Below, piece after piece: positions 1 through 10,923 of a stretch of 64,000 bases of DNA. Within the stretch, counting starts at the first letter, position 1. Every line of letters starts with the position of its first letter. Origin of the DNA: Ruminococcus sp. (GTDB lineage: Bacteria; Bacillota; Clostridia; Oscillospirales; Ruminococcaceae); the NCBI GenBank assembly GCA_016290875.1, contig JAEEVL010000019.1:252-64251 (forward strand). The letters run 5' to 3'. The translations under genes and the position numbers were made by a program. The notes beneath the pieces were generated by a model. The model was not told the origin of the DNA. It saw nothing but the letters and a program-made list of their open reading frames with translations, and did no database searches.

Positions 1-194
1 GCAGTGTGGACGGCATCAACGGCAATGTCGATCTCGACATCTGCTACAAGGATTTCCCGACCATCATCAAGGCGAAGGGGCTGAACGGCTACGGCAAGGA
101 ACTGAATCCGCCTGCGCCTGCTGCGGAGGACGGCATCACAGTCGAGGTCACAGTGGACGGTCAGAAGTACAGCGGAAAACTGAATAAGGCTTGA
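1..194 (+). CDS. 3' end of GH25 lysozyme-type endolysin (partial, runs off window start)
   Basis: Frame 3 reads SVDGINGNVDLDICYKDFPTIIKAKGLNGY, the typical C-terminal strand of GH25 muramidases of Firmicute phages; followed by a terminator. Confidence 0.7.
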   Translation, partial: SVDGINGNVDLDICYKDFPTIIKAKGLNGYGKELNPPAPAAEDGITVEVTVDGQKYSGKLNKA

Positions 195-199
195 AATAT

Positions 200-234
200 G
201 GGCTGTCGGAGATTATTTCCGGCAGCCCTTTTTT
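200..234 (+). terminator. Rho-independent terminator after endolysin
   Basis: GGGCTGTCGGA-N7-TCCGGCAGCCC then TTTTTT. Confidence 0.85.
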
Positions 235-336
235 GCGTATAGTGATTGAAAAACTGGTCGGGTTGTGGTATAATTGGGAATGGAAGCAATGTGTGAGATT
301 GCTCGTGTGAATTAAGGCTGATGAGGTGAAAAATAT

Positions 337-708
337 ATGTATAATTCGTGTTTTGGAGAAATGGAGTACGATTACGGCTGGATCACCAAAAGGGATATTC
401 AATTATTCGGTAAAACCTTTGAGGTTGAGGTCAGAATAGTCTCAAACGATAGTGAAGATGGTATTACAGAGGATTCTGAACAATCTTGCATTAGCTATAA
501 AGACAAAGAAACAGAGTATTTACAGTGCATAGAAAAGCTGATGTTGGAATTCAGTGATGATGCAGAAACGAGATTTACTCCCTGTACCCTTTACATTAAA
601 GCTAGCGGAAGTTGTGCTTTACTATGCAGTGATGTAGAAGATGAAGATGGAATAGCGGTATGTATTATTCCTGAGAAATGTGTAAAATATCAATGTGAGT
701 TTCTCTAA
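337..708 (+). CDS. AT-rich acidic hypothetical protein (DUF6985/DUF2004-like), moron-type gene
   Basis: 123-aa ORF, RBS GAGGTG, own promoter TTGAAA-N17-TATAAT (~247-275); N-terminus FGEMEYDYGW resembles DUF6985-like proteins. Confidence 0.6.
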   Translation: MYNSCFGEMEYDYGWITKRDIQLFGKTFEVEVRIVSNDSEDGITEDSEQSCISYKDKETEYLQCIEKLMLEFSDDAETRFTPCTLYIKASGSCALLCSDVEDEDGIAVCIIPEKCVKYQCEFL

Positions 709-753
709 TTATTGAAAAAAGCACAGCGGAAAACTGAATAAGGCATAACACCA

Positions 754-794
754 ACGCCCGTCGGGATTTTTTTCTCGGCGGGCGCATTTTTTTT
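754..794 (+). terminator. Rho-independent terminator
   Basis: CGCCCGTCGGGA...CTCGGCGGGCG followed by T8. Confidence 0.8.
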
Positions 795-870
795 CGTCCA
801 AACGCACTTCGATTCTGTAGTGGGATATGAAGGGGTTGACTTTCCCGGCTATCATTAGGAGGTGAGATTC

Positions 871-1137
871 ATGATAAAGCACAAAATTACCGATAAGGAA
901 AAAGCAATGATGAATGGAGGGATCACTGTGGAAGAGACCAAAGAGCCTGTCGTCCCGGTCGGCGATAAGTATATGCTGACGATCAAAGAGGCATCAAACT
1001 ATTTCAGTATCGGCGAAAAGAAGCTGCGTCGGCTGGCAGAAGAACACACAGGCGATTTCGCTGTTATCAACGGAAACCGCTATTTGATTATTAGAACAAA
1101 ATTCGAGCAGTTTCTCCTCGAAACTTCTACCATCTGA
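871..1137 (+). CDS. xis: Excisionase 1 (Tn916 Xis-like winged helix)
   Basis: KYMLTIKEASNYFSIGEKKLRRL...NGNRYLIIRTKFEQFL matches the Tn916-Xis pattern; AGGAGG RBS before ATG 871. Confidence 0.85.
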   Translation: MIKHKITDKEKAMMNGGITVEETKEPVVPVGDKYMLTIKEASNYFSIGEKKLRRLAEEHTGDFAVINGNRYLIIRTKFEQFLLETSTI

Positions 1138-1237
1138 TTTGACGTTAAAGTGCCGTAAGTAGTTGCTTTTTCGCCGAAATAGAGTAATATATGATACTAA
1201 GCCCGGAGAGGCAAATATATTACTGGAGGCGATCAGC

Positions 1238-1468
1238 ATGGACGAACTGAAAATCCCGGAGAAGTTTATTCTCTCGATCAGGGAGGCTGCTTTATACTTC
1301 GGCATGGGAGAGAAGAAAATCCGCAGAATGGCAGAAGACAATGAAGGCGGCTTTGCACTGTACAACGGTAACCGCTACCTTGTAATCCGCCCGCTGATGG
1401 AGCAGTACTTCACAGCGCTTGCAAAGAAAGGAGGCACACAGGATGCAGAGAGCAACACCGGAGAATAA
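1238..1468 (+). CDS. xis: Excisionase 2 (Tn916 Xis-like)
   Basis: KFILSIREAALYFGMGEKKIRRM...NGNRYLV; GGAGG RBS before ATG 1238 (later than the ORF-track start). Confidence 0.8.
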   Translation: MDELKIPEKFILSIREAALYFGMGEKKIRRMAEDNEGGFALYNGNRYLVIRPLMEQYFTALAKKGGTQDAESNTGE

Positions 1469-1652
1469 GGATTTCCTGACGCCCGAAGAGACGATCGTTC
1501 TTTTCGTCCTGAGCAGACGGAAGTTCGGCGAGTGGCTGCGCAAACAGAACACCCGCCCGATGATCGTGATGGTCGGAAAGCGTAAAATGATCAACCGCAC
1601 AGCCTTTCAGGAGTATCTGTGCGAACACCCTGAATTAAGGAGGAAAATTTAA
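1443..1652 (+). CDS. Excisionase-like HTH protein 3
   Basis: KDFLTPEETIVLFVLSRRKF...GKRKMINRTAFQEYL; AAGGAGG RBS; stop overlaps integrase start. Confidence 0.7.
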   Translation: MQRATPENKDFLTPEETIVLFVLSRRKFGEWLRKQNTRPMIVMVGKRKMINRTAFQEYLCEHPELRRKI

Positions 1653-2899
1653 TGGGTATCAGAGGAAACATCCGCCGCGATCCCAAGCGCCGTATTCTTC
1701 GCGCCGGGGAATCCATCAGGGCGGACGGCAAGTATCAGTTCAAGTATTATGTGGACGGAAAGCCGCACTTCGTTTATAGCTGGAAGCTGGAACCGACAGA
1801 CACACTTCCGCAGGGAAAGAAACCGTGCCTTTCCCTGCGTGAGATGGAGAAGCAGATCGGCTATGACCTTGATGCGATGCTCGATCCGCAGAAGAAAAAC
1901 ATGACGGTGATGGAGCTTGTGGAGCGCTACCTGAGAACCAGAACTGCCGTAAAGCCGCAGACGAAAACGAATTATAACTTCGTGGTGAACCTTCTGAAAA
2001 AGGAGGAGTTCAGCGGCAGAAAGATCGGAACCATCAAGACTTCGGATGCAAAGCTGTTCCTGATCAAGATGCAGAGCGACGGCAGGGGCTACAGTTCCGT
2101 CAAGACCGTGCGCGGCGTTCTGCGTCCGGCATTTCAGATGGCAGTCGATGATGACATTCTCGTCAAGAACCCCTTCGGCTTCCAGCTTGCCGGTGTGGTC
2201 GTCAACGACAGCAAGACCAGAGAGGCTATTACGAAAGAGCAGATGCGCAAGTTCCTGAAATTCGTACATGACGATAACACCTACTGCAGATACTACGAAG
2301 CGGTATTCATTCTGTTCCATACCGGGATGCGCATTTCAGAATTTTGCGGTCTGACGCTGAAAGACATTGACCTGCAGAACCGTATCGTCAATATCGACCA
2401 TCAGCTTCAGCGCACTTCCGACATGGAGTATGTGATTCAGACCACCAAGACGAATGCCGGTAAGCGGCAGATTCCGATTACCGAGGAGGTTGCCCGGTGC
2501 TTTCAGGCGATCATCGAGGACAGAGAGAAGCCGCGACGGGAACCGTTCGTGGACGGATACTGCGGCTTCCTGTACTTCGACGAGAACGGTATGCCGCTGG
2601 TCGCGCTGCACTGGGAACACCGCTTCAACCGCATGGTCAGCAAGTATAATGAGATTTACCGGGTGCAGATGCCGAACATCACGCCTCACATCTGCCGCCA
2701 TACCTATTGCAGCAATCAGGCGAAGGCAGGTATGAACCCGAAAACGCTGCAATACCTGATGGGACACAGCGAAATCGGCGTCACGCTTGACGTTTATACG
2801 CATCTGGGACTGGAGGATGCTGCTGCGGAGCTTCACCGCATGGAGGAAGTCCAGAACGCCCGTCAGGAGATGAACAGAACAAAGGATGAAGCAGTATGA
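1652..2899 (+). CDS. int: Tn916-family tyrosine integrase
   Basis: N-terminal RRDPKRRILRAGESIRADGKYQFKY (Tn916 Int arm-binding domain pattern); catalytic R (TGMRISE), HxxR (HICRH), LMGH, Y (VYTH). Confidence 0.93.
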   Translation: MGIRGNIRRDPKRRILRAGESIRADGKYQFKYYVDGKPHFVYSWKLEPTDTLPQGKKPCLSLREMEKQIGYDLDAMLDPQKKNMTVMELVERYLRTRTAVKPQTKTNYNFVVNLLKKEEFSGRKIGTIKTSDAKLFLIKMQSDGRGYSSVKTVRGVLRPAFQMAVDDDILVKNPFGFQLAGVVVNDSKTREAITKEQMRKFLKFVHDDNTYCRYYEAVFILFHTGMRISEFCGLTLKDIDLQNRIVNIDHQLQRTSDMEYVIQTTKTNAGKRQIPITEEVARCFQAIIEDREKPRREPFVDGYCGFLYFDENGMPLVALHWEHRFNRMVSKYNEIYRVQMPNITPHICRHTYCSNQAKAGMNPKTLQYLMGHSEIGVTLDVYTHLGLEDAAAELHRMEEVQNARQEMNRTKDEAV

Positions 2900-2913
2900 T
2901 CTGCTTCCGGCTG

Positions 2914-2952
2914 CGGCTCACTTCGGTGAGCCGTTATTTTTTGCCTTTTTTG
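2914..2952 (+). terminator. Terminator after integrase
   Basis: CGGCTCAC-TTCG-GTGAGCCG + T-rich tail; near-identical hairpin at 8224-8247. Confidence 0.85.
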
Positions 2953-2954
2953 AC

Positions 2955-2983
2955 TTGATGAATTGGAAGGATTATGGTATAAT
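2955..2983 (+). promoter_or_regulatory. Sigma-A promoter at right end of unit 1
   Basis: TTGATG-N17-TATAAT with extended -10 TG; equivalents at 5675-5703 and 8264-8292. Confidence 0.75.
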
Positions 2984-3052
2984 GGAGTGGTAGGAAATCA
3001 GATAGAAGTGATATGATAGTTTCATTATTTTCAGCATGGAGAGAGTTGAGTT

Positions 3053-3565
3053 ATGTATACAGAAGTAAAAATCGAAAGTTCACTTGTGCTGCCATACAAA
3101 TTGATCGACTTTCAACAAGGTGACGAACAGTTTGTTTTTGCATTCAAATGCTTCGATGAAAAACAGACCGATTATTCAATACAACACGGTGGAGTAACAG
3201 GATCATTTGCGATTGAATACAGATGCTGTGGAATTGATAGCCATTTTGAACTTGATGTTACTGTAGGCAATGTGTATGAGTTTTATGAATCGCTGAAGAA
3301 CGCCTACAATACACAGCTTTGCAAAGACTGTAATGCAGCATTGCGAAATTATGGTTCATTAGACAGAACCTATATTTTAATGAGTTTTGATAAAATAGGA
3401 CATTGTCTGATGAAAGGCTTATTTCTGAATGGAGATCATCAATATAAAAGCGGTATTTCTTTTGAGATTGAAATTGATCAGACATTTATTCCTGAAATAC
3501 TATCATCACTAAAATGCTTTTTTGAAGAATTGAAAAGAATACAAGGTCATGACACCTTTTATTAA
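3053..3565 (+). CDS. AT-rich hypothetical protein, WapI-like immunity protein candidate
   Basis: 170 aa; C-terminal FDKIGH...ISFEIEIDQTFIPEIL pattern recalls the WapI family; no search run. Confidence 0.45.
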   Translation: MYTEVKIESSLVLPYKLIDFQQGDEQFVFAFKCFDEKQTDYSIQHGGVTGSFAIEYRCCGIDSHFELDVTVGNVYEFYESLKNAYNTQLCKDCNAALRNYGSLDRTYILMSFDKIGHCLMKGLFLNGDHQYKSGISFEIEIDQTFIPEILSSLKCFFEELKRIQGHDTFY

Positions 3566-3579
3566 TTTCAAAGCCCAAA

Positions 3580-4066
3580 TTCCTTAGTAGTAAAACACCC
3601 CGTGTTTACTACCATTTTTACTACTAACGATGTCCTTAGAATGCTAAGATTTGCCGCAATTTGCCGAGTTAGCCTCGAATTTTGACAGAATCAATACACC
3701 TGTTCGTCAAAGTATACAAAGGCAAATCGCGGCAAAACACGGCAAAATACGGAGGTTTATACCTATGATAAAGGTTATGTTTGTCTGCCACGGCACGCTA
3801 GATTAACATATTTCATATCATAAGCAAAACGCAGTAAAACAAGGAAAATCGTTGCAATGTATGTAGTCGTTTACTACCATTTTACTACTAACGATTTACA
3901 GTATTCGTAAAATCTACTCCAATCGAGCCCCTAACAGCACCGCAAATCGTGGCATATTGCAGCAAATGTCGGCATTTCATTCTGCACATACAGCATAGTA
4001 TGTGCAGAATTATGTTCACTTTAGTTTTGGCATCTTAACATACCGCTATGGATAGTGACAAAAATC
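3580..4066 (+). repeat. att junction A (attP-like: right arm of unit 1 + core + left arm of cassette 2)
   Basis: TTCCTTAGTAGTAA..TTACTACC..TTACTACTAACGA (3580-3630), CGGCA repeats, GGAGG RBS, ATG 3765 MIKVMFVCHG, core ATGTTTGTCTGCCACGGCA ends 3795, then TTACTACCATTTTACTACTAACGA (3871-3894) and conserved block 4012-4066. Confidence 0.88.
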
Positions 4067-4113
4067 AGCACCATTTTTCAAGCGAAATATACAATATATT
4101 CTGTTTTGAAAAC

Positions 4114-4160
4114 AAAAAAATCCCCCTTAACTTCACGGTGTCATCCGCTGTCAAGGGGGA
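4114..4160 (-). terminator. Probable terminator of the Panacea-GNAT operon
   Basis: TCCCCCTT...AAGGGGGA stem with A7 on its left (U-run on minus strand); loop is long. Confidence 0.5.
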
Positions 4161-4168
4161 AATTGCAA

Positions 4169-5074
4169 TTATACATCGTCTTCTGTTGGTTCGCTTAGAT
4201 ATAGTTGTTTAAACTGTTCTGCCTTCTGAACCAAAGTTTTTATTTCTTGGCATAAAAAGACACATCGCCAATCATAATATGGCTTTACTGCACATAGATC
4301 AGGATCCCTTTCAAAATACAGAGCATGCTTATAGTATTGTATAAGATTTCTTTTTTCATCGGTTTTTTCTTCTGATACATCCGCAGCAAATATTGCAACA
4401 TATACGCACCCGATTAATTCACTAACACTTTTGATTATTGGCATTATTTTATACCAAAAAAGAGTTGCACCTAATGCAGGCTTAAAACCTATTTCACACC
4501 ACTTTTTTTCAGCATTGTGGTTCTTACAGAAATTCACAAGTTCTATGCTCGGAATAATACGATCTACGTATATATTGTTTTGCATATCTAGTTGTTTACA
4601 TGATATTATTTTGGCTATCATGTCAATTAATGACATAGTTTCCTCGTCGCTTAAGCTGTCGTATTTTTCTAATCCAGGAAACATCTGCATTTCAGCTTTA
4701 AAAATATCGATATCCGGACGATCTTTATAACCGGTTACATCCGATTCTTTTGCATAATGATACGCACATTTTAGCTGACTAAGGTCTTCTGGAGAAGCTT
4801 TCTGTAATGAAACAACAAGACTTGCTTGCAATGAAAAGAACAAAAAGACATCAGAATCATCATGCACAACATAAAACAAATCATGTGGTTTGGGAGTCTT
4901 TGTATCTGATTGTAAGTATTCTTTAAGCCTATCAAGCATATCTGATGATACACTATAATAACGATTGTCCGGGTCTCCACAATTAAATTTTTCTAATAAG
5001 CTTAGAATACTATTATCGCCAGGGATAACTCGTGTACAATGCAAACCATTTACATACTCTTCTAAACTCAGCAA
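4169..5074 (-). CDS. GNAT-like acetyltransferase, putative toxin
   Basis: IPSIELVNFCKN...LGATLFW..IMPII..VSELIGCVYVAIFAAD...LIQYY..LYF follows the AtaT/TacT-type GNAT pattern; TTG start directly after antitoxin stop. Confidence 0.55.
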   Translation of the reverse strand: MLSLEEYVNGLHCTRVIPGDNSILSLLEKFNCGDPDNRYYSVSSDMLDRLKEYLQSDTKTPKPHDLFYVVHDDSDVFLFFSLQASLVVSLQKASPEDLSQLKCAYHYAKESDVTGYKDRPDIDIFKAEMQMFPGLEKYDSLSDEETMSLIDMIAKIISCKQLDMQNNIYVDRIIPSIELVNFCKNHNAEKKWCEIGFKPALGATLFWYKIMPIIKSVSELIGCVYVAIFAADVSEEKTDEKRNLIQYYKHALYFERDPDLCAVKPYYDWRCVFLCQEIKTLVQKAEQFKQLYLSEPTEDDV

Positions 5075-5075
5075 C

Positions 5076-5516
5076 TTAATTACCTCTTGCTGCTTTTACT
5101 CTTTCAGCATCTAAATAGATATCCTTAGTTGAAATTCGATTGTCACCATTTACACCTTCTGGAATACCAGCACGAGCACGTTTCCATGATTCTTCTCCAT
5201 GAGAAATCATACTTAAACTCCAAGATAAAATGTGTGAATATTCAGCAAAAACCTTATCCATTATGGACGCTAAGCTGTCATTTCGATAATTTTTGTTAAA
5301 ATCATCATTTTTATAGTGGACTCTTATTTCACGTAAAACAGGTCCATACTTCCACGCCTCAAACTCTTCAGCAAATAATGGATTCCCGGTTTGAATGATT
5401 GATTCACGTTGTGCGAAGTATAATAATTTGTGTAACTTCATTTCATCTATACGCTTATTATTCTCAGCCATATATCTGTTGCAGATATAAGAAGCAATAT
5501 CATAAACTTTATACAT
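5076..5516 (-). CDS. Panacea domain (DUF4065/SocA/GepA) antitoxin
   Basis: VYDIASYI...MKLHKLLYFAQ...PLFAEEFEAWKYGPV...LSMISHGEESW; AAAGGAG RBS before ATG 5516. Confidence 0.88.
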   Translation of the reverse strand: MYKVYDIASYICNRYMAENNKRIDEMKLHKLLYFAQRESIIQTGNPLFAEEFEAWKYGPVLREIRVHYKNDDFNKNYRNDSLASIMDKVFAEYSHILSWSLSMISHGEESWKRARAGIPEGVNGDNRISTKDIYLDAERVKAARGN

Positions 5517-5674
5517 CACACTCACTCCTTTCGTATAATACGCCTTCATACTCTATTACTACCCCATCTTAAGATTATTATACTCAATAATTCTCAAAAA
5601 GTCAATAGGGAATTGCTGCTTTGAGTATTTTATATGAAACGTAACCATCTTATGATATCATAGGTATTTCCATC

Positions 5675-5703
5675 TTGAAGAAAAAAGGATAATATGGTAT
5701 AAT
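5675..5703 (+). promoter_or_regulatory. Sigma-A promoter at right end of cassette 2
   Basis: TTGAAG-N17-TATAAT, extended -10. Confidence 0.75.
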
Positions 5704-5732
5704 AGAATAGCAAAATCCCCTAAAAGTAGTAT

Positions 5733-6398
5733 TAGTAGTAACCTCTTTACTACTACAGAAAAATATCTGGAAGCAAAATCAAGGATTTCACATTGTAGGT
5801 CATACTTTAAAAACCTCATAGAATCGAGAAAAAGATCGTCTGCAAGTAAACGCATTAATGCTCAAAAACAAAAGTGTAACTTACTACTAAAGAACATTCA
5901 GCGTATGTCGTAATTTCCTTAGTAGTAATTTTCCCCGATTTTACTACCATTTCTACTACTAACGATGTCCTTAGAATGCTAAGATTTGCCGCAATTTGCC
6001 GAGTTCACCGTGATTTTTGACAGAATCAATACACCCGTTCGTCAAAGTATACAAAGGCAAATCGCGGCAAAACACGGCAAATCACGGAGGTTTAAGCCCA
6101 TGATAAGAGTTATGTTTGTCTGCCACGGCACTCTGGCGAATATTTTTCCGATCCTATGATTTTAGCGGCATATTGCGGCAAATCGTTGCTTTGTAAAGAA
6201 TACATTACTACTGTTTTACTACTAACGAATCACATTATTATTTTTGCCAATAAAAAGCGGCTCTTTTTAACGGCGCAAATTACGGCATATTGCGGCATAT
6301 GCTTGTTTTTCATTCGGCGCATTAAACCTGCACTGTGAAAAATAATGTTCACTTTAGTTTTGGCATCTTAACACCTACTATGGATAGTGACAAAAATC
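5733..6398 (+). repeat. att junction B (right arm of cassette 2 + core + left arm of cassette 3)
   Basis: Arm motifs at 5733-5755, 5881-5890, 5915-5965; RBS + ATG 6100 MIRVMFVCHG; core ends 6130; arm pair 6205-6228; conserved block 6345-6398. Confidence 0.9.
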
Positions 6399-6491
6399 GA
6401 CATTGTTTTTTGAGCAAAGCAAACAATAATCGCTGTGATGCTTTTATGAAAGTATTAGTATACCGATACTACTGAAAAACGTAAAAAGGTA

Positions 6492-6520
6492 TTGAAAACA
6501 GGATGGAAGTATGGTATAAT
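6492..6520 (+). promoter_or_regulatory. darTG promoter
   Basis: TTGAAA-N17-TATAAT with extended -10. Confidence 0.7.
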
Positions 6521-6555
6521 ATAAAAAGCGGATTATTGCTTTGTGAGGTGACAAT

Positions 6556-7158
6556 ATGAACATTAGAGATGGAAAGTTGATTTACCACTTAGTTCCACTT
6601 GATTCATTGGAATCAATAATTGAGCACGGGCTTATGTCAAGGGATGACTTAGCCGAAAATGGTCTTAGTTTTATTGATACTGCAGATCAAGAGATATTAC
6701 AGAAAAGAGAAAGGCTCGGATTATCTCAATATATACCATTTCATTTTCATATTCATACAGCTTATGATACCGCAGTAAAAAATACAAATCATGATAAAAT
6801 ATTTGTATACATATGTTTACATCGTGATTATGCCAAAAGAAGAGGATTTAAAATTCTGCCCATTCATCCAGCTTCTAATGAACAGCCCCAATTGTTTGAT
6901 TATGAAGAAGGCTTTGCCGCTATTGATTGGGATACAATGGAACTAACGAAAAGTGAAGTGGAAGAACGAGATGAGGATTTAAGGTATCATCAGCAGGTTC
7001 GAATGGCTGAGTGCTTATCACCATTTCCTATTCCTGTTGAGTGCTTTCTATCCATCAATGTTCCAAACGAACAAGTAAAGAGAACTGTTATCGAATTATT
7101 AGATACACATAATATCGTAGACAGACCTCATGTGAATATTATGAACTGGTTTGTTTAA
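6556..7158 (+). CDS. darT: DarT DNA ADP-ribosyltransferase toxin (DUF4433)
   Basis: IYHLVPLDSLESIIEHGLMSR...YIPFHF...RMAECL (putative catalytic Glu); upstream of a macrodomain gene. Confidence 0.88.
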   Translation: MNIRDGKLIYHLVPLDSLESIIEHGLMSRDDLAENGLSFIDTADQEILQKRERLGLSQYIPFHFHIHTAYDTAVKNTNHDKIFVYICLHRDYAKRRGFKILPIHPASNEQPQLFDYEEGFAAIDWDTMELTKSEVEERDEDLRYHQQVRMAECLSPFPIPVECFLSINVPNEQVKRTVIELLDTHNIVDRPHVNIMNWFV

Positions 7159-7180
7159 TCTTAAAGAAAGGAGGAAAATC

Positions 7181-8218
7181 ATGATTAACTTTGTAGTTGG
7201 TAATCTATTGGAATCTAATGCTTTCGCACTTGTTAATACTGTCAACTGCGAAGGATACATGGGGAAGGGCATCGCATACCAGTTTAAAATGCGCTTTCCA
7301 GAAATGAACGCTGAATATGTAAAACAGTGTATGTCGCATAAACTAAGACCGGGAAAACTTCACACCTATGCAGAAGGTTCAAAGTTAATCGTGAATTTCC
7401 CGACTAAAGACAAATGGCGAGAAAAATCCAAAATGGAATACATTACTTCTGGATTAGATGAACTGGTTAAATTAATCAAAGAGAAACAGATTCCGTCAAT
7501 TGCTATTCCGCCACTTGGGAGTGGTAACGGCGGACTCATCTGGAGTGAAGTAAAGCAGATCATTATTCAAAAACTTGGTTGCCTTGATGACACTGTTGAC
7601 ATATATATTTATGAACCTTCCAGAAATTACCAAGCACTGCCAGCGGTTGAACCAAAACTGTCTTTATCTGCACTAATTCTAATGCAACTAAAATTCCATC
7701 TTTTATATGATGATGTGCATTTTGGGGCTATTGGATTACAGAAGACTGCTTATTTTATGAATGTATTATCTCATACAGATTATTTTCGATTTAAAAAAGG
7801 TAAATATGGTCCGTTTGATCATGATATTGATGTGATAGCCAAGAAGATTGGTGAGTTTCAGAAATTTCATAAGGCAACTACCAATGAAGCATATGAAATA
7901 CTACTGCAAAAATTGATCAGTGAAAAAACTCTTCAACAACTGGAATTCTATGCTCCTTTTATAAATAAAGCGGCTGAGTTTACAAATCATTTTTCGGATA
8001 GTGCCTCTATCGAAGGTGCTGGTACTGCTCTATTCATCATTCAGCAGGCTCACTGTGCTACAACGGAAGAAGTAATCGCTGGATTCAAACAGTGGTCTGA
8101 AGATAAGGCAAAACGTTTTTCAGAAGATGCAATAAAATCTGCTATAAACGAATTAGAGCAAGCAGGCTTTATTCAAGAAACGTTTTGTGGATTCCAAATT
8201 GCAAATGGACAATCATAA
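7181..8218 (+). CDS. darG: DarG macrodomain antitoxin
   Basis: GNLLES..ALVNTVNCEGYMGKGIAYQFK..FP...IVNFPTK..WR...AIPPLGSGNGGL; AAGGAGG RBS; DarG-type C-terminal domain. Confidence 0.92.
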   Translation: MINFVVGNLLESNAFALVNTVNCEGYMGKGIAYQFKMRFPEMNAEYVKQCMSHKLRPGKLHTYAEGSKLIVNFPTKDKWREKSKMEYITSGLDELVKLIKEKQIPSIAIPPLGSGNGGLIWSEVKQIIIQKLGCLDDTVDIYIYEPSRNYQALPAVEPKLSLSALILMQLKFHLLYDDVHFGAIGLQKTAYFMNVLSHTDYFRFKKGKYGPFDHDIDVIAKKIGEFQKFHKATTNEAYEILLQKLISEKTLQQLEFYAPFINKAAEFTNHFSDSASIEGAGTALFIIQQAHCATTEEVIAGFKQWSEDKAKRFSEDAIKSAINELEQAGFIQETFCGFQIANGQS

Positions 8219-8223
8219 TATAG

Positions 8224-8260
8224 AGTGGTTCACTTCGGTGAGCCACTTTTCGCTTTTTTC
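8224..8260 (+). terminator. Terminator after darG
   Basis: AGTGGTTCAC-TTCG-GTGAGCCACT + T-rich tail. Confidence 0.85.
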
Positions 8261-8263
8261 ATC

Positions 8264-8733
8264 TTGAAGAAACGGCAACAATATGGTATAATATTAGAGT
8301 ATCTACGCTCGGACACATAAACGATTAATAATTGCTTGGTAGTAACCACTTTACTACTAAAGAAATACGACAGGAAGAAAAATCAAGGATTCAACACCGT
8401 AATTCACACTCAAAGAATCCCCATAGAATCGATGAAAACAGTACTTGTTATATCAAGAATAAACGACCGAAAATAAAAGTGTAACTTACTACTAAAGAAC
8501 ATTCAGCATACAGCCAGTTTCCTTAGTAGTAAAAAGCCCCGATTTTACTACTATTTTACTACTAACGACTGCCATAATATGCAAATTTATGCCGCAATTT
8601 GCCGATTTCGCCCCATTCTGTCAAAATGGGTGTAAAACAAACCAACCTTGCAAAAGTCCGCATAGCACGGCAAAATACGGCATTTCAGGAGGAAAAAATA
8701 GCATGATTCGTGTGATGTTTGTTTGCCACGGCA
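8264..8733 (+). repeat. attR: right arm of cassette 3 supplying promoter, RBS and first codons of the PTP gene
   Basis: TTGAAG-N17-TATAAT (8264-8292); arm motifs 8338-8360, 8486-8495, 8519-8568; AGGAGG; ATG 8703; core ATGTTTGTTTGCCACGGCA continues into intact gene. Confidence 0.9.
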
Positions 8734-9164
8734 ATATCTGCCGTTCACCTATGGCAGAATTCATTATGAAAAAACTTATTGCTGATGCCGGACTCAGTAA
8801 CGAAATATACATAGCTTCAAGCGCAACGAGCACCGAGGAGCTTGGAAATTCCGTTTATCCGCCGGCACGCTCAGAACTTTCAAAACACGGACTTGGCTGT
8901 TCCGGAAAAACAGCTGTTCAGCTAAGAAAGTCAGACTATGACAAGTACGACTTATTCATTGGAATGGACACAGCCAACATACGTAATATGTCACGCATCT
9001 TTGGAAGTGACAAAGATGAAAAGGTCTACAAACTCCTTACGTTTGCCGGGCGCGGAGATGATGTTTCCGATCCATGGTACAGCCGCGATTTCGGAAAGGC
9101 ATACAGCGATATAGAGGAAGGCTGCACTGCATTGCTTTCCTATCTCAAGGAGAATTATTTATGA
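8703..9164 (+). CDS. Low-molecular-weight protein tyrosine phosphatase (integration target gene)
   Basis: P-loop VCHGNICRS, DPWY motif; true start ATG 8703 with AGGAGG. Confidence 0.93.
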   Translation: MIRVMFVCHGNICRSPMAEFIMKKLIADAGLSNEIYIASSATSTEELGNSVYPPARSELSKHGLGCSGKTAVQLRKSDYDKYDLFIGMDTANIRNMSRIFGSDKDEKVYKLLTFAGRGDDVSDPWYSRDFGKAYSDIEEGCTALLSYLKENYL

Positions 9165-9349
9165 GATACACGATACTTGAAATATATGAAGAAGACTACG
9201 GCTGAGAGGAAATCCCGGACGGCGAAGAACCTATGTGCAGTGTCCGTGTCCGCGATGACAAAGGCAACGAAAAACTACTCAGAATAGCGGACTGCTATCT
9301 GATTGAAAACAAACTCGACCGAGGTTCAATACTGAACTGGGAAGAATGA
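9161..9349 (+). pseudogene. 62-codon small ORF interrupted by in-frame TGA at codon 15 (nonsense, sequencing error or recoded)
   Basis: AAGGAG RBS, ATGA overlap with PTP stop; MRYTILEIYEEDYG*EEIPDGEEPMCSVRVRDDKGNEKLLRIADCYLIENKLDRGSILNWEE*. Confidence 0.6.
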
Positions 9350-9369
9350 TATAAATACGGAGGATAAAT

Positions 9370-10923
9370 ATGAGTATACTTAACGTTGAACACGTAACGC
9401 ACGGATTCGGTGCAAGGCAGATACTGAACGACGCTTCATTCAGGCTTCTGAAAGGTGAACACGTCGGACTCGTCGGTGCAAATGGCGAAGGCAAATCCAC
9501 ATTTCTGAACATAATAATGGGCAAACTCCAGCCTGACGAAGGCAAAGTCGAATGGTGCCGTCATATAACCACAGGCTATCTCGATCAGTACAGCACTCTT
9601 GAAAAGGGCAAGTCTATCCGTGATGTACTGCGTGAAGCTTTCAATCACCTCTCTGACCTTGAAGCAGAAATGCTCCAGCTTTACGAAAAGATGTCCGACT
9701 GCTCAGAAGATGAAATGAACGATCTTATGGAAGAAGTCGGCGAGATACAGAGCATTCTCGATTACAGCGGTTATTACACTATTGACGCAAAGATCTCTGA
9801 ATATGCTAACGGTCTCGGACTCAACGAGATAGGTCTTGAAAGAGACGTAGCAGAGCTTTCCGGCGGTCAGCGAGCTAAGGTTCTCCTTGCAAAGGTACTG
9901 CTTGAAAACCCGATGATACTCATTCTTGACGAGCCTACAAACTTCCTTGACGAAAACCACATCAGATGGCTGACCAATTTTCTGCAGAACTACGAAAATG
10001 CTTTCATACTCGTTTCACATGATGTACCGTTTATGAACAGCGTTATCAATGTTGTTTACCATGTTGAAAACGCCGTTATGACACGCTATACAGGCGACTA
10101 TGATAACTTTGAACGTATGTATGAACTCAAAAAGCGTCAGATAGAACAGGCATATGAAAAACAACAGAAAGAGATCGCTGACCTCGAGGACTTCATTGCC
10201 CGCAACAAGGCAAGAGTTGCAACTACCAATATGGCTAAGTCACGTCAGAAGAAGCTCGACAAAATGGACAAGATAACTCTTATGCGTGAGAAGCCTAAGC
10301 CGACTTTTTCTTTCAGGAAGGCGCGAACTCCCGGTCGAGTTGTTATCGACTGCAAGAATGTTGTTCTCGGATATGACGAACCGCTCACCAAGCCTATTTC
10401 TGTCAAAGTCGAAAACGGGCAAAGAATTGCTATCCGCGGAGTTAACGGTATAGGGAAGTCCACCTTGCTGAAAACTCTCCTCAAAATCATTCCTCCCATT
10501 TCCGGATATGTTGAACACGATCAGTTCGTTGAATACGGCTACTTTGAACAGGAAGAAGAAAGCACTTCAAAAACTGCTCTTGACGTTATATGGGAAGAAT
10601 ATCCCTCTATGACAAACGCGGAAGTTCGTGCAGCTCTTGCACAGTGCGGACTCACCACAGACCACATCACTTCACAGATGAGAGTTCTCTCCGGCGGTGA
10701 GAATGCCAAGGTAAGAATTTGCAGGATAATGCTGAGAGAAATAAATCTTCTTGTCCTTGACGAGCCTACAAACCATCTCGATGTTGATGCTAAGGAGTCT
10801 CTGAAAAAAGCAATCAAGGACTACAAAGGCACCGTCCTCATAGTAAGCCATGAACCTGAATTCTACATGGATATTGCTGACAACATATGGAACATCGAAG
10901 AATGGTCCACCAAGATAATCTGA
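9370..10923 (+). CDS. ABC-F family ATPase (YfmM-like)
   Basis: Two ABC domains (GANGEGKS, LSGGQ; GVNGIGKS, LSGGE), no TM segments. Confidence 0.9.
   Translation: MSILNVEHVTHGFGARQILNDASFRLLKGEHVGLVGANGEGKSTFLNIIMGKLQPDEGKVEWCRHITTGYLDQYSTLEKGKSIRDVLREAFNHLSDLEAEMLQLYEKMSDCSEDEMNDLMEEVGEIQSILDYSGYYTIDAKISEYANGLGLNEIGLERDVAELSGGQRAKVLLAKVLLENPMILILDEPTNFLDENHIRWLTNFLQNYENAFILVSHDVPFMNSVINVVYHVENAVMTRYTGDYDNFERMYELKKRQIEQAYEKQQKEIADLEDFIARNKARVATTNMAKSRQKKLDKMDKITLMREKPKPTFSFRKARTPGRVVIDCKNVVLGYDEPLTKPISVKVENGQRIAIRGVNGIGKSTLLKTLLKIIPPISGYVEHDQFVEYGYFEQEEESTSKTALDVIWEEYPSMTNAEVRAALAQCGLTTDHITSQMRVLSGGENAKVRICRIMLREINLLVLDEPTNHLDVDAKESLKKAIKDYKGTVLIVSHEPEFYMDIADNIWNIEEWSTKII

What the first reader, a model, noticed from the sequence alone, without database searches (positions are those of the whole stretch)
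3765..8733. Every unit carries a synonymously diverged replacement 5' end of the target gene, splitting the catalytic P-loop
Seen: GGAGG RBS + ATG ATA AAG GTT ATG TTT GTC TGC CAC GGC (3765), ATG ATA AGA GTT ... (6100) and ATG ATT CGT GTG ... (8703) all encode MI[K/R]VMFVCHG despite several nucleotide differences. The internal copies run into stops after 13 and 19 codons. Identity ends inside the CHG|NICR P-loop codons. Inference: purifying selection on all three copies means each unit has had to (or must be able to) occupy the attR position and rebuild the phosphatase, which argues for independent integration or shuffling rather than simple duplication. Targeting active-site codons ensures a conserved attB across hosts.
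Basis: partly seen in the sequence, partly recalled or inferred. Interest (0 to 1): 0.62.

Follow-up and report, generated by a model that had tools for sequence, protein, structure and literature searches.

The report
Stacked mobile cassettes rebuilding phosphatase start
A prophage and two small integrase-less defence-gene cassettes are stacked in front of a Ruminococcus tyrosine-phosphatase gene, each carrying its own spare promoter, ribosome site and first ten codons so the gene stays intact; it is a clear new example of a known way mobile elements pile up at one site.

Summary
Three copies of RBS+ATG+MI[K/R]VMFVCHG lie at 3765, 6100 and 8703. The two inner copies stop after 13 and 19 codons. 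Similarity ends at TGCCACGGCA, inside the C-X5-R loop of an LMW phosphotyrosine phosphatase.

The region is a site-specific accretion array. A prophage-type element with three Xis-like genes and a Tn916/Tn1549-family integrase is followed by two integrase-less units of 2335 and 2603 bp. Their cargo is a Panacea toxin-antitoxin pair and DarTG. Both units keep both att arms.

The ten codons belong to the family's attP. Related prophages carry the same 30-mer followed by phage DNA or by the phosphatase gene.

In 26 inner junctions found by arm motifs alone, 23 keep the peptide, with pN/pS of 0.19, the same as working copies.

Displaced copies elsewhere do decay: a lost start codon in this genome, frameshifts, a G-to-D change and deletions. 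The selection signal is therefore inherited from times at the gene, not maintained in place.

I found no report of this target site or of these defence mini-cassettes.

The parts
862..1652 (+). Three tandem excisionase-like genes (862-1137, 1163-1468, 1419-1652)
   Evidence: Pfam Tn916-Xis E 3.6e-15 and 6.2e-10; the third has only a weak HTH_17 hit.
1652..2899 (+). Heterobivalent tyrosine integrase of the Tn916/Tn1549 family. It is the only integrase of this family in the genome.
   Evidence: Pfam Phage_integrase E 2.4e-30 plus Integrase_DNA (arm-binding N-domain) E 1.2e-28. PDB Tn1549 Int 6EMY E 8.8e-80; Tn916 N-domain 1B69/1BB8. Single copy in G000. 98.8% identical to the integrase of the 21-kb element in G035.
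2913..2983 (+). Terminator plus rightward promoter module ('T-P') at the right end of unit 1
   Evidence: Hairpin at 2913-2934 followed by TTGATG-17-TGgTATAAT at 2955-2983. The module recurs at 8222-8292, 5675-5703, 246-274 and on C74, and in many relatives.
3053..3565 (+). 170-aa cargo gene between the promoter and the P arm of unit 1. It is absent at this position in G035.
   Evidence: Weak WapI-like immunity hit, E 3.5e-4, below cut-off. Window 2984-3572 has no match in G035.
3577..3764 (+). P arm of unit 1, with TACTAC arm-type repeats (3587, 3607, 3619), phased CGGCAAA repeats and the RBS
   Evidence: 90% identical to 5912-6134 and 92.5% to the G035 right end. TACTAC occurs 18 times in the first 9.3 kb and 5 times in the other 54.7 kb.
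3765..3806 (+). Displaced replacement 5' end, copy 1 (MIKVMFVCHGTLD*). The crossover block TGCCACGGCA is at 3786-3795.
3796..4100 (.). Left end (P' arm) of unit 2, with TACTAC-N5-TACTACTAACGA at 3872-3893
   Evidence: 70% identical to 6177-6428. The same arm motif lies 76 nt after the core in G035 attL.
4169..5549 (-). Cargo of unit 2: a SocA/Panacea-domain antitoxin (5076-5549) and a 301-aa partner of unknown family (4169-5074)
   Evidence: Pfam SocA_Panacea E 3.3e-17; the partner has no Pfam or PADLOC hit.
5667..6099 (+). Right end of unit 2: promoter 5675-5703, a roughly 200-nt leader with further TACTAC/GTAGTA sites, and the P arm at 5912-6099
6100..6159 (+). Displaced replacement 5' end, copy 2 (MIRVMFVCHGTLANIFPIL*). 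The crossover block is at 6121-6130.
6131..6430 (.). Left end (P' arm) of unit 3, with TACTAC-N5-TACTACTAACGA at 6206-6227
   Evidence: 90.7% identical over 268 nt to the left end of a 2621-bp integrase-less unit in Ruminococcus sp. SIG542 (L086).
6556..8218 (+). Cargo of unit 3: DarT (6556-7158) and DarG (7181-8218)
   Evidence: Pfam DarT E 1.6e-23 and Macro E 2.2e-18. PADLOC DarT E 3.6e-34 and DarG E 2.8e-95.
8222..8702 (+). Right end of unit 3: terminator 8222-8249, promoter 8264-8292, leader, and the P arm at 8520-8702 with the RBS. This is the promoter now driving PTP.
   Evidence: The P arm is 85-88% identical to right ends at PTP in other Ruminococcus genomes (L070, L071).
8703..9164 (+). 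LMW phosphotyrosine phosphatase gene. Codons 1-10 (8703-8732) are supplied by unit 3. The crossover block is at 8724-8733, and host sequence starts at Asn11.
   Evidence: Pfam LMWPc E 1.8e-30. PDB 2GI4 E 3.8e-26 with the CxGNICRS motif aligned. Single copy in the genome.

Best explanation
This is an accretion array made by site-specific recombination at an attB that lies inside codons 8-11 (TGC CAC GGC A) of the LMW-PTP gene.

A family of temperate-phage-like elements encodes a Tn916/Tn1549-type integrase with an arm-binding N-domain. Their attP carries, on the integrase-proximal (P) side, a terminator and strong promoter, a leader studded with TACTAC arm-type sites and CGGCAAA repeats, an RBS, and the first ten PTP codons.

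Integration places this P side in front of the rest of PTP, giving an attR with a chimeric but intact gene. The former 5' end is pushed to attL, where it runs into a stop.

Repeated events stacked three units here. Unit 1 is the prophage end carrying Xis x3 and Int. Units 2 and 3 are integrase-less elements of 2.3 and 2.6 kb. Each consists only of a left arm, one defence or TA module, and a right arm.

Shown by sequence: the anatomy, the attP/attL/attR relationships across relatives, and the codon-level conservation.

Inferred: that Int and Xis of unit 1 can excise or integrate units 2 and 3 in trans or carry them along in cis, that TACTAC and CGGCAAA are Int and Xis sites, and that the T-P promoter drives PTP.

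The synonymous divergence reflects each element lineage's past service as the working 5' end. Once displaced, copies drift.
For: - Anatomy in the window.
- G035 (Ruminococcus sp. XPD3002) has a 20,982-bp element between two identical cores. It has the same Xis-Int (94% nt identity), the same P arm, and a P' arm with the same TACTAC-N5-TACTACTAACGA motif 76 nt after the core.
- That element carries tail, endolysin, DUF2815-like and PolA-like genes by their sequence. The integrase clade is common in 40-55 kb IMG/VR contigs: 107 relatives at 56-91% identity.
- One 30-mer is followed by phage DNA in L191 and L192 and by PTP in L193.
- The two cores bounding each unit differ at synonymous sites to the left but share TGCCACGGCA, then diverge completely (8 pairs).
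- An arm-only metagenome scan found 24 inner junctions, 21 with an intact decapeptide. pN/pS is 0.19 in these and 0.19 in working copies.
- Integrase-less units occur between a core and PTP in other contigs: L086 2621 bp (PDC-M69), L084 884 bp, L090 972 bp, L111 4257 bp, L104 about 5.1 kb.
- Units 2 and 3 have no integrase, and the genome holds one integrase of this family.
Against:
- The left end of unit 1 is off the contig, which starts 251 bp before the window. No TACTAC-type left end for unit 1 was found elsewhere in the assembly.
- The specific left end of units 2 and 3 was found in only one other genome. It was not found in 161 other genus genomes or in 400 family genomes.
- The arm-only pattern gave no hit in IMG/VR, so a contiguous attP of this exact subtype in a free phage genome was not shown.
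- The binding-site assignments rest on my recollection of the Tn916 DR2 arm site (AGTAGTAAA), which I could not check in a paper.
Confidence: 0.8

Rival explanations
1. Units 2 and 3 are dead scars. Successive prophages integrated at PTP and were later gutted by deletion, leaving only ends plus moron-like cargo. The units no longer move, and the inner 5' ends are intact only because the events are recent.
For: - Integrase 3'-end stubs with a T-P module and P arm are common next to PTP in relatives: G035, L086, L066, L071, L098, L114, L118.
- Displaced junctions decay.
- The unit-2/3 left end is rare.
Against: - Both units retain complete left and right arms with the arm motifs at the same spacing as the intact G035 element.
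- They contain no phage gene fragments, only one defence or TA module each.
- The same left end is joined to unrelated defence cargo in another species, which simple in-place decay does not predict.
- The cognate Int and three Xis genes are intact next door.
Confidence: 0.3
2. The inner copies are kept by selection where they sit. They would be needed either as micro-ORFs (13- and 19-aa peptides made from a strong promoter and RBS) or because every unit must stay ready to rebuild PTP after loss of its right neighbour.
For: - 23 of 26 inner junctions found without reference to the codons keep the ATG, the frame and the peptide, with pN/pS of 0.19.
- The RBS is conserved.
Against: - The peptide tails after Gly10 are unrelated (TLD*, TLANIFPIL*, and others).
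- Lesions occur only in displaced copies: 3 of 14 against 0 of 24 in the genus sample (Fisher p about 0.04, relatives not independent), plus truncations and a degenerate junction.
- An inner junction is sequence-identical to the element's attP, so history at attP or attR explains the pattern without selection in place.
Confidence: 0.15
3. The array arose by local duplication or gene conversion of the PTP 5' region, with cargo inserted afterwards.
For: Direct repeats of 223 nt at 90% identity and shared flanking blocks.
Against: - The ends of units 2 and 3 are only 70-79% alike, and each resembles a different element sub-lineage in other genomes.
- Five synonymous differences fall within 30 nt between copies 2 and 3.
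- The same junction architecture recurs with an integrase in dozens of unrelated contigs.
Confidence: 0.03

Closest known systems
CIMEs and site-specific tandem accretion with ICEs/IMEs (ICESt1/ICESt3 of Streptococcus thermophilus; reviewed in PMC5704250, citing Pavlovic 2004 and Bellanger 2011)
   Same: Integrase-less elements keep attL and attR. They sit in tandem with an element that encodes the cognate integrase. A new element integrates at the att site that includes the target gene end. Composite excision and cis-mobilisation have been shown for that system.
   Different: The helper here looks like a prophage, not a conjugative element. The target is the 5' end of a protein gene, so each unit must bring a promoter, an RBS and N-terminal codons. 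The units are very small (0.9-5 kb) and carry single defence or TA modules. Mobility is untested.
SCC composite islands: tandem recombinase-less defence cassettes beside SCCmec at rlmH (PMC11470126)
   Same: Stacks of cassettes are bounded by att sites at one gene end. Only one cassette needs to encode the recombinase. Cargo is enriched in anti-phage defence. Cassettes excise singly or together.
   Different: SCC uses large serine recombinases (Ccr), simple att sites and the 3' end of rlmH. This array uses a heterobivalent tyrosine integrase with Xis, long arm-bearing att sites and the 5' end of LMW-PTP.
Gene-end replacement by attP: prophage e14 and phage 21 in the 3' end of E. coli icd (from my own knowledge; not read here)
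   Same: The element carries a diverged, largely synonymous copy of the target gene end, so integration keeps the gene intact.
   Different: Here the 5' end is replaced, together with the expression signals. The crossover lies within catalytic-loop codons, and several elements are stacked.
Tn916/Tn1549 integrase-excisionase modules (PDB 6EMY, 1B69)
   Same: Same protein family for Int (both domains) and Xis. The arm repeats resemble, from memory, the Tn916 DR2 site.
   Different: Tn916 and Tn1549 insert into many AT-rich targets with heterologous coupling sequences. This clade uses one conserved 9-10-bp block in one gene.
Integrons
   Same: An integrase sits at one end of an array of small single-function cassettes.
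   Different: There is no IntI, no folded attC and no common Pc reading promoterless cassettes. Sites are duplex att sites with arms, and every unit has its own promoter.

Membership tests
CIME / site-specific accretion array | Unit bounded on both sides by att sites related to those of an autonomous element | tested here: met
   Cores at 3777, 6112 and 8715, with P and P' arms matching the ends of the G035 element.
CIME / site-specific accretion array | Unit lacks integration and transfer genes | tested here: met
   Only Panacea + 301-aa partner and DarT + DarG lie in units 2 and 3. tblastn finds one integrase of this family in the genome.
CIME / site-specific accretion array | Lies in tandem with an element encoding the cognate integrase | tested here: met
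   Int at 1652-2899 plus Xis genes directly to the left, sharing the P arm type.
CIME / site-specific accretion array | Excision or cis-mobilisation by the neighbour's integrase | not testable with these tools
Tn916/Tn1549-family integrase module | Catalytic domain plus Tn916-type arm-binding N-domain, with a Tn916-type Xis | tested here: met
   PF00589, PF02920 and PF09035; PDB 6EMY E 8.8e-80 and 1BB8 E 3.2e-16.
Tn916/Tn1549-family integrase module | Low target specificity (many AT-rich sites, heterologous coupling sequences) | tested here: not met
   All junctions sampled in the genus lie at the PTP core. The shared block TGCCACGGCA is at every junction.
Gene-end-replacing attP (e14 / phage 21 type) | attP carries a copy of the target gene end that keeps the gene intact after integration | tested here: met
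   The same 30-mer is followed by phage DNA or by PTP (L191, L192 vs L193). All 24 PTP-attached copies are intact.
Gene-end-replacing attP (e14 / phage 21 type) | Divergence of the carried copy is mainly synonymous | tested here: met
   pN/pS 0.19. Minor-allele fraction by codon position is 0.11 / 0.05 / 0.29.
Integron | IntI integrase, attI/attC hairpin sites, promoterless cassettes read from Pc | tested here: not met
   The integrase is Tn916-type. The sites are about 490-nt duplex att regions with arms. Each unit has its own promoter.
SCC-type tandem defence cassettes | Ccr serine recombinases acting at the 3' end of rlmH | tested here: not met
   A tyrosine integrase acts here, and the target is the 5' end of LMW-PTP.
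DarTG toxin-antitoxin / defence | DarT ADP-ribosyltransferase next to a macrodomain DarG | tested here: met
   PADLOC DarT E 3.6e-34 and DarG E 2.8e-95; Pfam DarT and Macro.

The most novel reading that the evidence does not exclude
The integrase-less units are not mere wreckage. They would be a dedicated class of miniature cassettes built on a phage attP: about 300 bp of left arm, one defence module, and about 460 bp of right arm carrying a promoter and the PTP start. The prophage's Int and three Xis proteins would capture, reorder and shed them at its own attachment site. The cassettes would leave with the phage when the outermost cores recombine. This would be an integron-like defence-gene exchange platform run by a temperate phage.
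Probability: 0.3. Interest if true: 0.65.

Novelty: new member of a known kind. Interest (0 to 1): 0.45.

Why it matters
It documents an apparently undescribed and widespread attachment site for a clade of clostridial temperate elements: the P-loop codons of LMW-PTP. My literature searches found no report of it.

It is a clean natural example of 5'-end gene replacement in which the element supplies the promoter, the RBS and the catalytic cysteine codon.

It shows that in gut and rumen Firmicutes single defence systems (DarTG, PDC-M69, a Panacea TA pair, an ATPase-Toprim pair, a DUF4062-like gene) travel as tiny integrase-less att-bounded units beside prophages. This parallels what was recently shown for SCC elements in staphylococci.

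Two layers of constraint are separable within 30 nt: the peptide in codons 1-7 and the DNA in the last 9-10 bp. This gives a direct prediction of where strand exchange occurs.

Tried and rejected
- **Rfam.** A scan of 1-9400 for an RNA in the 400-nt leaders found nothing at E <= 0.1.
- **Upstream frame.** The open frame 'MPQFAE...' runs in frame through each P arm into the ATG. I rejected it as coding. Its amino-acid sequence is not conserved between the unit-3 copy and the others, it starts inside the CGGCAAA repeat, and a GGAGG lies just before the ATG.
- **Unit 1 left end.** I looked for it in the assembly, but the contig starts 251 bp before the window and no TACTAC-type left end exists elsewhere. 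Linking C74 to C10 stays conjecture.
- **Empty attB.** I looked for one with the same flanks. Upstream synteny is not conserved among the species sampled, so G016, G004 and G023 are only candidate naive sites with unrelated upstream DNA.
- **Unit-3 left end.** Searches of 161 genus and 400 family genomes found nothing.
- **IMG/VR.** An arm-only pattern scan gave 0 hits.
- **Exact DarG look-up.** It returned only a near-identical assembly and one short metagenome contig with the same layout.
- **Regex-defined 'displaced' set.** Its pN/pS of 0.21 is partly circular, because the regex demands an MFVCHG-like core. I therefore relied on the arm-only set.
- **Literature.** Searches for LMW-PTP as an attB found nothing relevant; two further queries were malformed.

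Full report
**Observation**

The three sequences are exactly as described. Copy 1 is RBS + ATG ATA AAG GTT ATG TTT GTC TGC CAC GGC at 3765. Copy 2 has AGA as its third codon and lies at 6100. Copy 3 is ATG ATT CGT GTG ATG TTT GTT TGC CAC GGC at 8703.

The inner copies read MIKVMFVCHGTLD* and MIRVMFVCHGTLANIFPIL*. The third copy continues into a 153-aa protein. That protein is an LMW phosphotyrosine phosphatase (Pfam LMWPc E 1.8e-30; PDB 2GI4 E 3.8e-26 with the CxGNICRS loop aligned).

The 18-mer core occurs 3 times against 0.05 expected. Similarity among the three ends after CACGGCA. The break therefore falls between Gly10 and Asn11, inside the C-X5-R loop, and the replaced piece includes the Cys8 codon.

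**Anatomy of the window**

To the left lie two Tn916-type Xis genes and a third HTH gene. Next comes a 415-aa integrase with both the catalytic domain and the Tn916 arm-binding N-domain. It matches the Tn1549 Int structure at E 8.8e-80.

After the integrase come, in order:
- a hairpin terminator and a near-consensus extended -10 promoter (2913-2983);
- a 170-aa cargo gene;
- a 188-nt block rich in TACTAC and CGGCAAA repeats;
- copy 1.

Units 2 (3796-6130) and 3 (6131-8733) each consist of three parts:
- a conserved left end of about 300 bp;
- cargo, which is a Panacea antitoxin plus a 301-aa partner in unit 2 and DarT-DarG in unit 3;
- a conserved right end of about 460 bp that again holds the promoter, a leader with more TACTAC sites, the repeat block and the RBS plus ten codons.

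Neither unit has an integrase. The genome has only one integrase of this family and one PTP gene.

**What the big element is**

The window starts 251 bp from a contig end, so unit 1 is cut.

In a congener, G035 (Ruminococcus sp. XPD3002; title), the same Xis-Int block (94% nt, 98.8% aa) ends a 20,982-bp element. That element is bounded by two identical cores.
- Its right end has the same P arm directly before an intact PTP.
- Its left end, 76 nt after the core, has CTACTACCAAATTACTACTAACGAT. This is the motif found at the same distance in the left ends of units 2 and 3.

The G035 element carries tail, endolysin, DUF2815-like and PolA-like genes, judged from their sequences (no Pfam run on them). 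Relatives of the integrase at 56-91% identity are common in 40-55 kb IMG/VR contigs, usually at a contig end. The helper is therefore a temperate-phage-like element, not a conjugative transposon.

**The ten codons belong to attP**

In viral contigs L191 and L192 the 30-mer ATGATTAAAATATTATTCGTTTGTCACGGC is followed by phage DNA. In L193 the same 30-mer, downstream of the same integrase type, is followed by PTP.

In eight cases where one unit is bounded by two cores, the two copies differ at synonymous positions on the left. They share TGCCACGGCA (or most of it) and are unrelated immediately after it. Strand exchange is thus confined to about 10 bp, which form the inverted repeat TGCC-AC-GGCA.

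To avoid choosing copies by their codons, I scanned metagenome contigs with the two arm motifs only. This gave 24 inner junctions. Of these, 21 have an intact start, frame and peptide. The other three, all from one lineage, have CAC changed to ATAC, a frameshift.

Together with the window's two copies this gives 15 distinct 30-mers, with pS 0.53, pN 0.10 and a ratio of 0.19. PTP-attached copies also give 0.19. In both sets variation is concentrated at third positions.

In the arm-only set TGC CAC GGC never varies, even synonymously. This points to an extra DNA-level constraint at the crossover.

A genus-wide sample was taken by the P arm without its coding part; 33 of 162 genomes matched. It gave:
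- 24 PTP-attached copies, none damaged;
- 14 displaced copies, three of them damaged: ATG>ATA on contig C74 of this genome, a 1-nt deletion in L068, and Gly>Asp in L072;
- truncated arms with the codons deleted in L059, L075 and L078.

One inner junction in L111 has lost its RBS and arm repeats and carries several nonsynonymous changes.

My conclusion is that the peptide-level constraint is real but is a property of element lineages that repeatedly serve at attR. Once displaced, a copy is free to decay.

**Are units 2 and 3 a class or wreckage?**

In favour of a class:
- A Ruminococcus MAG (SIG542, L086) has a 2621-bp integrase-less unit directly before PTP. Its left end is 90.7% identical to that of unit 3, and its right end matches those of units 2 and 3 at 75-81%. 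Its cargo is the three-gene candidate defence system PDC-M69.
- Other contigs show integrase-less units of 884 bp, 972 bp, 4.3 kb (an ATPase plus Toprim-like pair and a DUF4062-like gene, both named from their sequences only) and 5.1 kb between a core and PTP. Several sit just downstream of an intact Xis-Int.

In favour of wreckage:
- Integrase stubs and decayed junctions are frequent.
- The particular left end of units 2 and 3 was not found in 161 other genus genomes or in 400 family genomes.

**Comparison with known systems**

The layout matches CIME accretion as defined by the Guedon group (PMC5704250). There an element retains attL and attR but no integrase, sits in tandem with a cognate element, and new arrivals enter at the att site that includes the gene end.

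It also matches the tandem recombinase-less defence cassettes beside SCCmec (PMC11470126).

The principle of an attP that carries a synonymously diverged gene end is classical (e14 and phage 21 in icd; from my own knowledge).

The differences here are:
- the 5' end is replaced, together with the expression signals;
- the target lies in catalytic-loop codons of LMW-PTP;
- the helper is phage-like, with a Tn916-family integrase that is site-specific;
- the units are very small.

It is not an integron (see the membership test). I found no paper naming LMW-PTP as an attB, but the searchable library is limited.

The scan's earlier notes on this window describe the same arms, promoter module and DarTG cargo. 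They were not followed up. Analogous arrays at other genes were reported elsewhere in the scan.

**Verdict**

The case is a new member of a known kind and of moderate interest.

Noticed in passing
G000 contig C74:63579-63642 (L009 1501-1565; L053 8580-8642): A fourth copy of the replacement 5' end lies in the same genome. Its start is mutated to ATA. It is preceded by a T-P module, a GNAT gene and a truncated P arm. It is followed by a different left end with TTTTCCAC-N3-TTTTCCAC repeats. This 'b-type' left end follows the same core in at least 8 other Ruminococcus genomes (L041, L043, L048, L061, L067, L068, L072). In G024 it bounds a 13.4-kb element with a truncated relaxase and a 54%-identical integrase fragment. 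A second element family therefore shares this attB.
   Followed up: partly
window 195-744, 2910-3565, 8222-8292; L078 (G123:C57) 2960-7100: A 75-nt terminator-plus-promoter module (GGCTCACTTCGGTGAGCC hairpin, then TTGAHG-17-TGgTATAAT) precedes many single small genes. In one congener five such modules stand in tandem, one before each gene. In the window the ORF123 unit is flanked by a 26-nt duplication of the endolysin 3' end (165-190 and 719-744). This looks like a separate moron-type single-gene cassette system.
   Followed up: partly
window 4012-4070 and 6345-6400; L086 (reverse strand) about 1690-1745: A block of about 55 nt (ATGTTCACTTTAGTTTTGGCATCTTAACA..CTATGGATAGTGACAAAAATC) is conserved at the inner edge of the left end of units 2 and 3 and of the SIG542 unit. 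Promoter-like hexamers occur on both strands. Its function is unknown.
   Followed up: no
L086 (SVNP01000022.1), PTP start: The PTP attached to the SIG542 array reads MIRIMFVCYGNICRS. It has Tyr (TAC) instead of His in the P-loop, so the core there is TGCTACGGC and shares only ACGGCA with the inner copy.
   Followed up: no
L084 (JAFQHD010000196.1) and L090 (JAZSNS010000019.1): Very small units of 884 and 972 bp lie between a displaced core and PTP. The L084 unit has a P' arm, one 115-aa membrane-protein ORF and no integrase nearby. These are the smallest members seen.
   Followed up: partly
window 3651-3806, 5986-6159, 8589-9164: Each P arm is open in frame with the PTP start for about 38 codons from a TTG ('MPQFAE...'). 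The amino-acid sequence is not conserved in the unit-3 copy, and the TTG lies in the CGGCAAA repeat, so this is probably not coding.
   Followed up: yes
window 9370-10923: An ABC-F ATPase gene lies between PTP and the pseudouridine synthase gene here. In G035 the synthase gene follows PTP almost directly.
   Followed up: no
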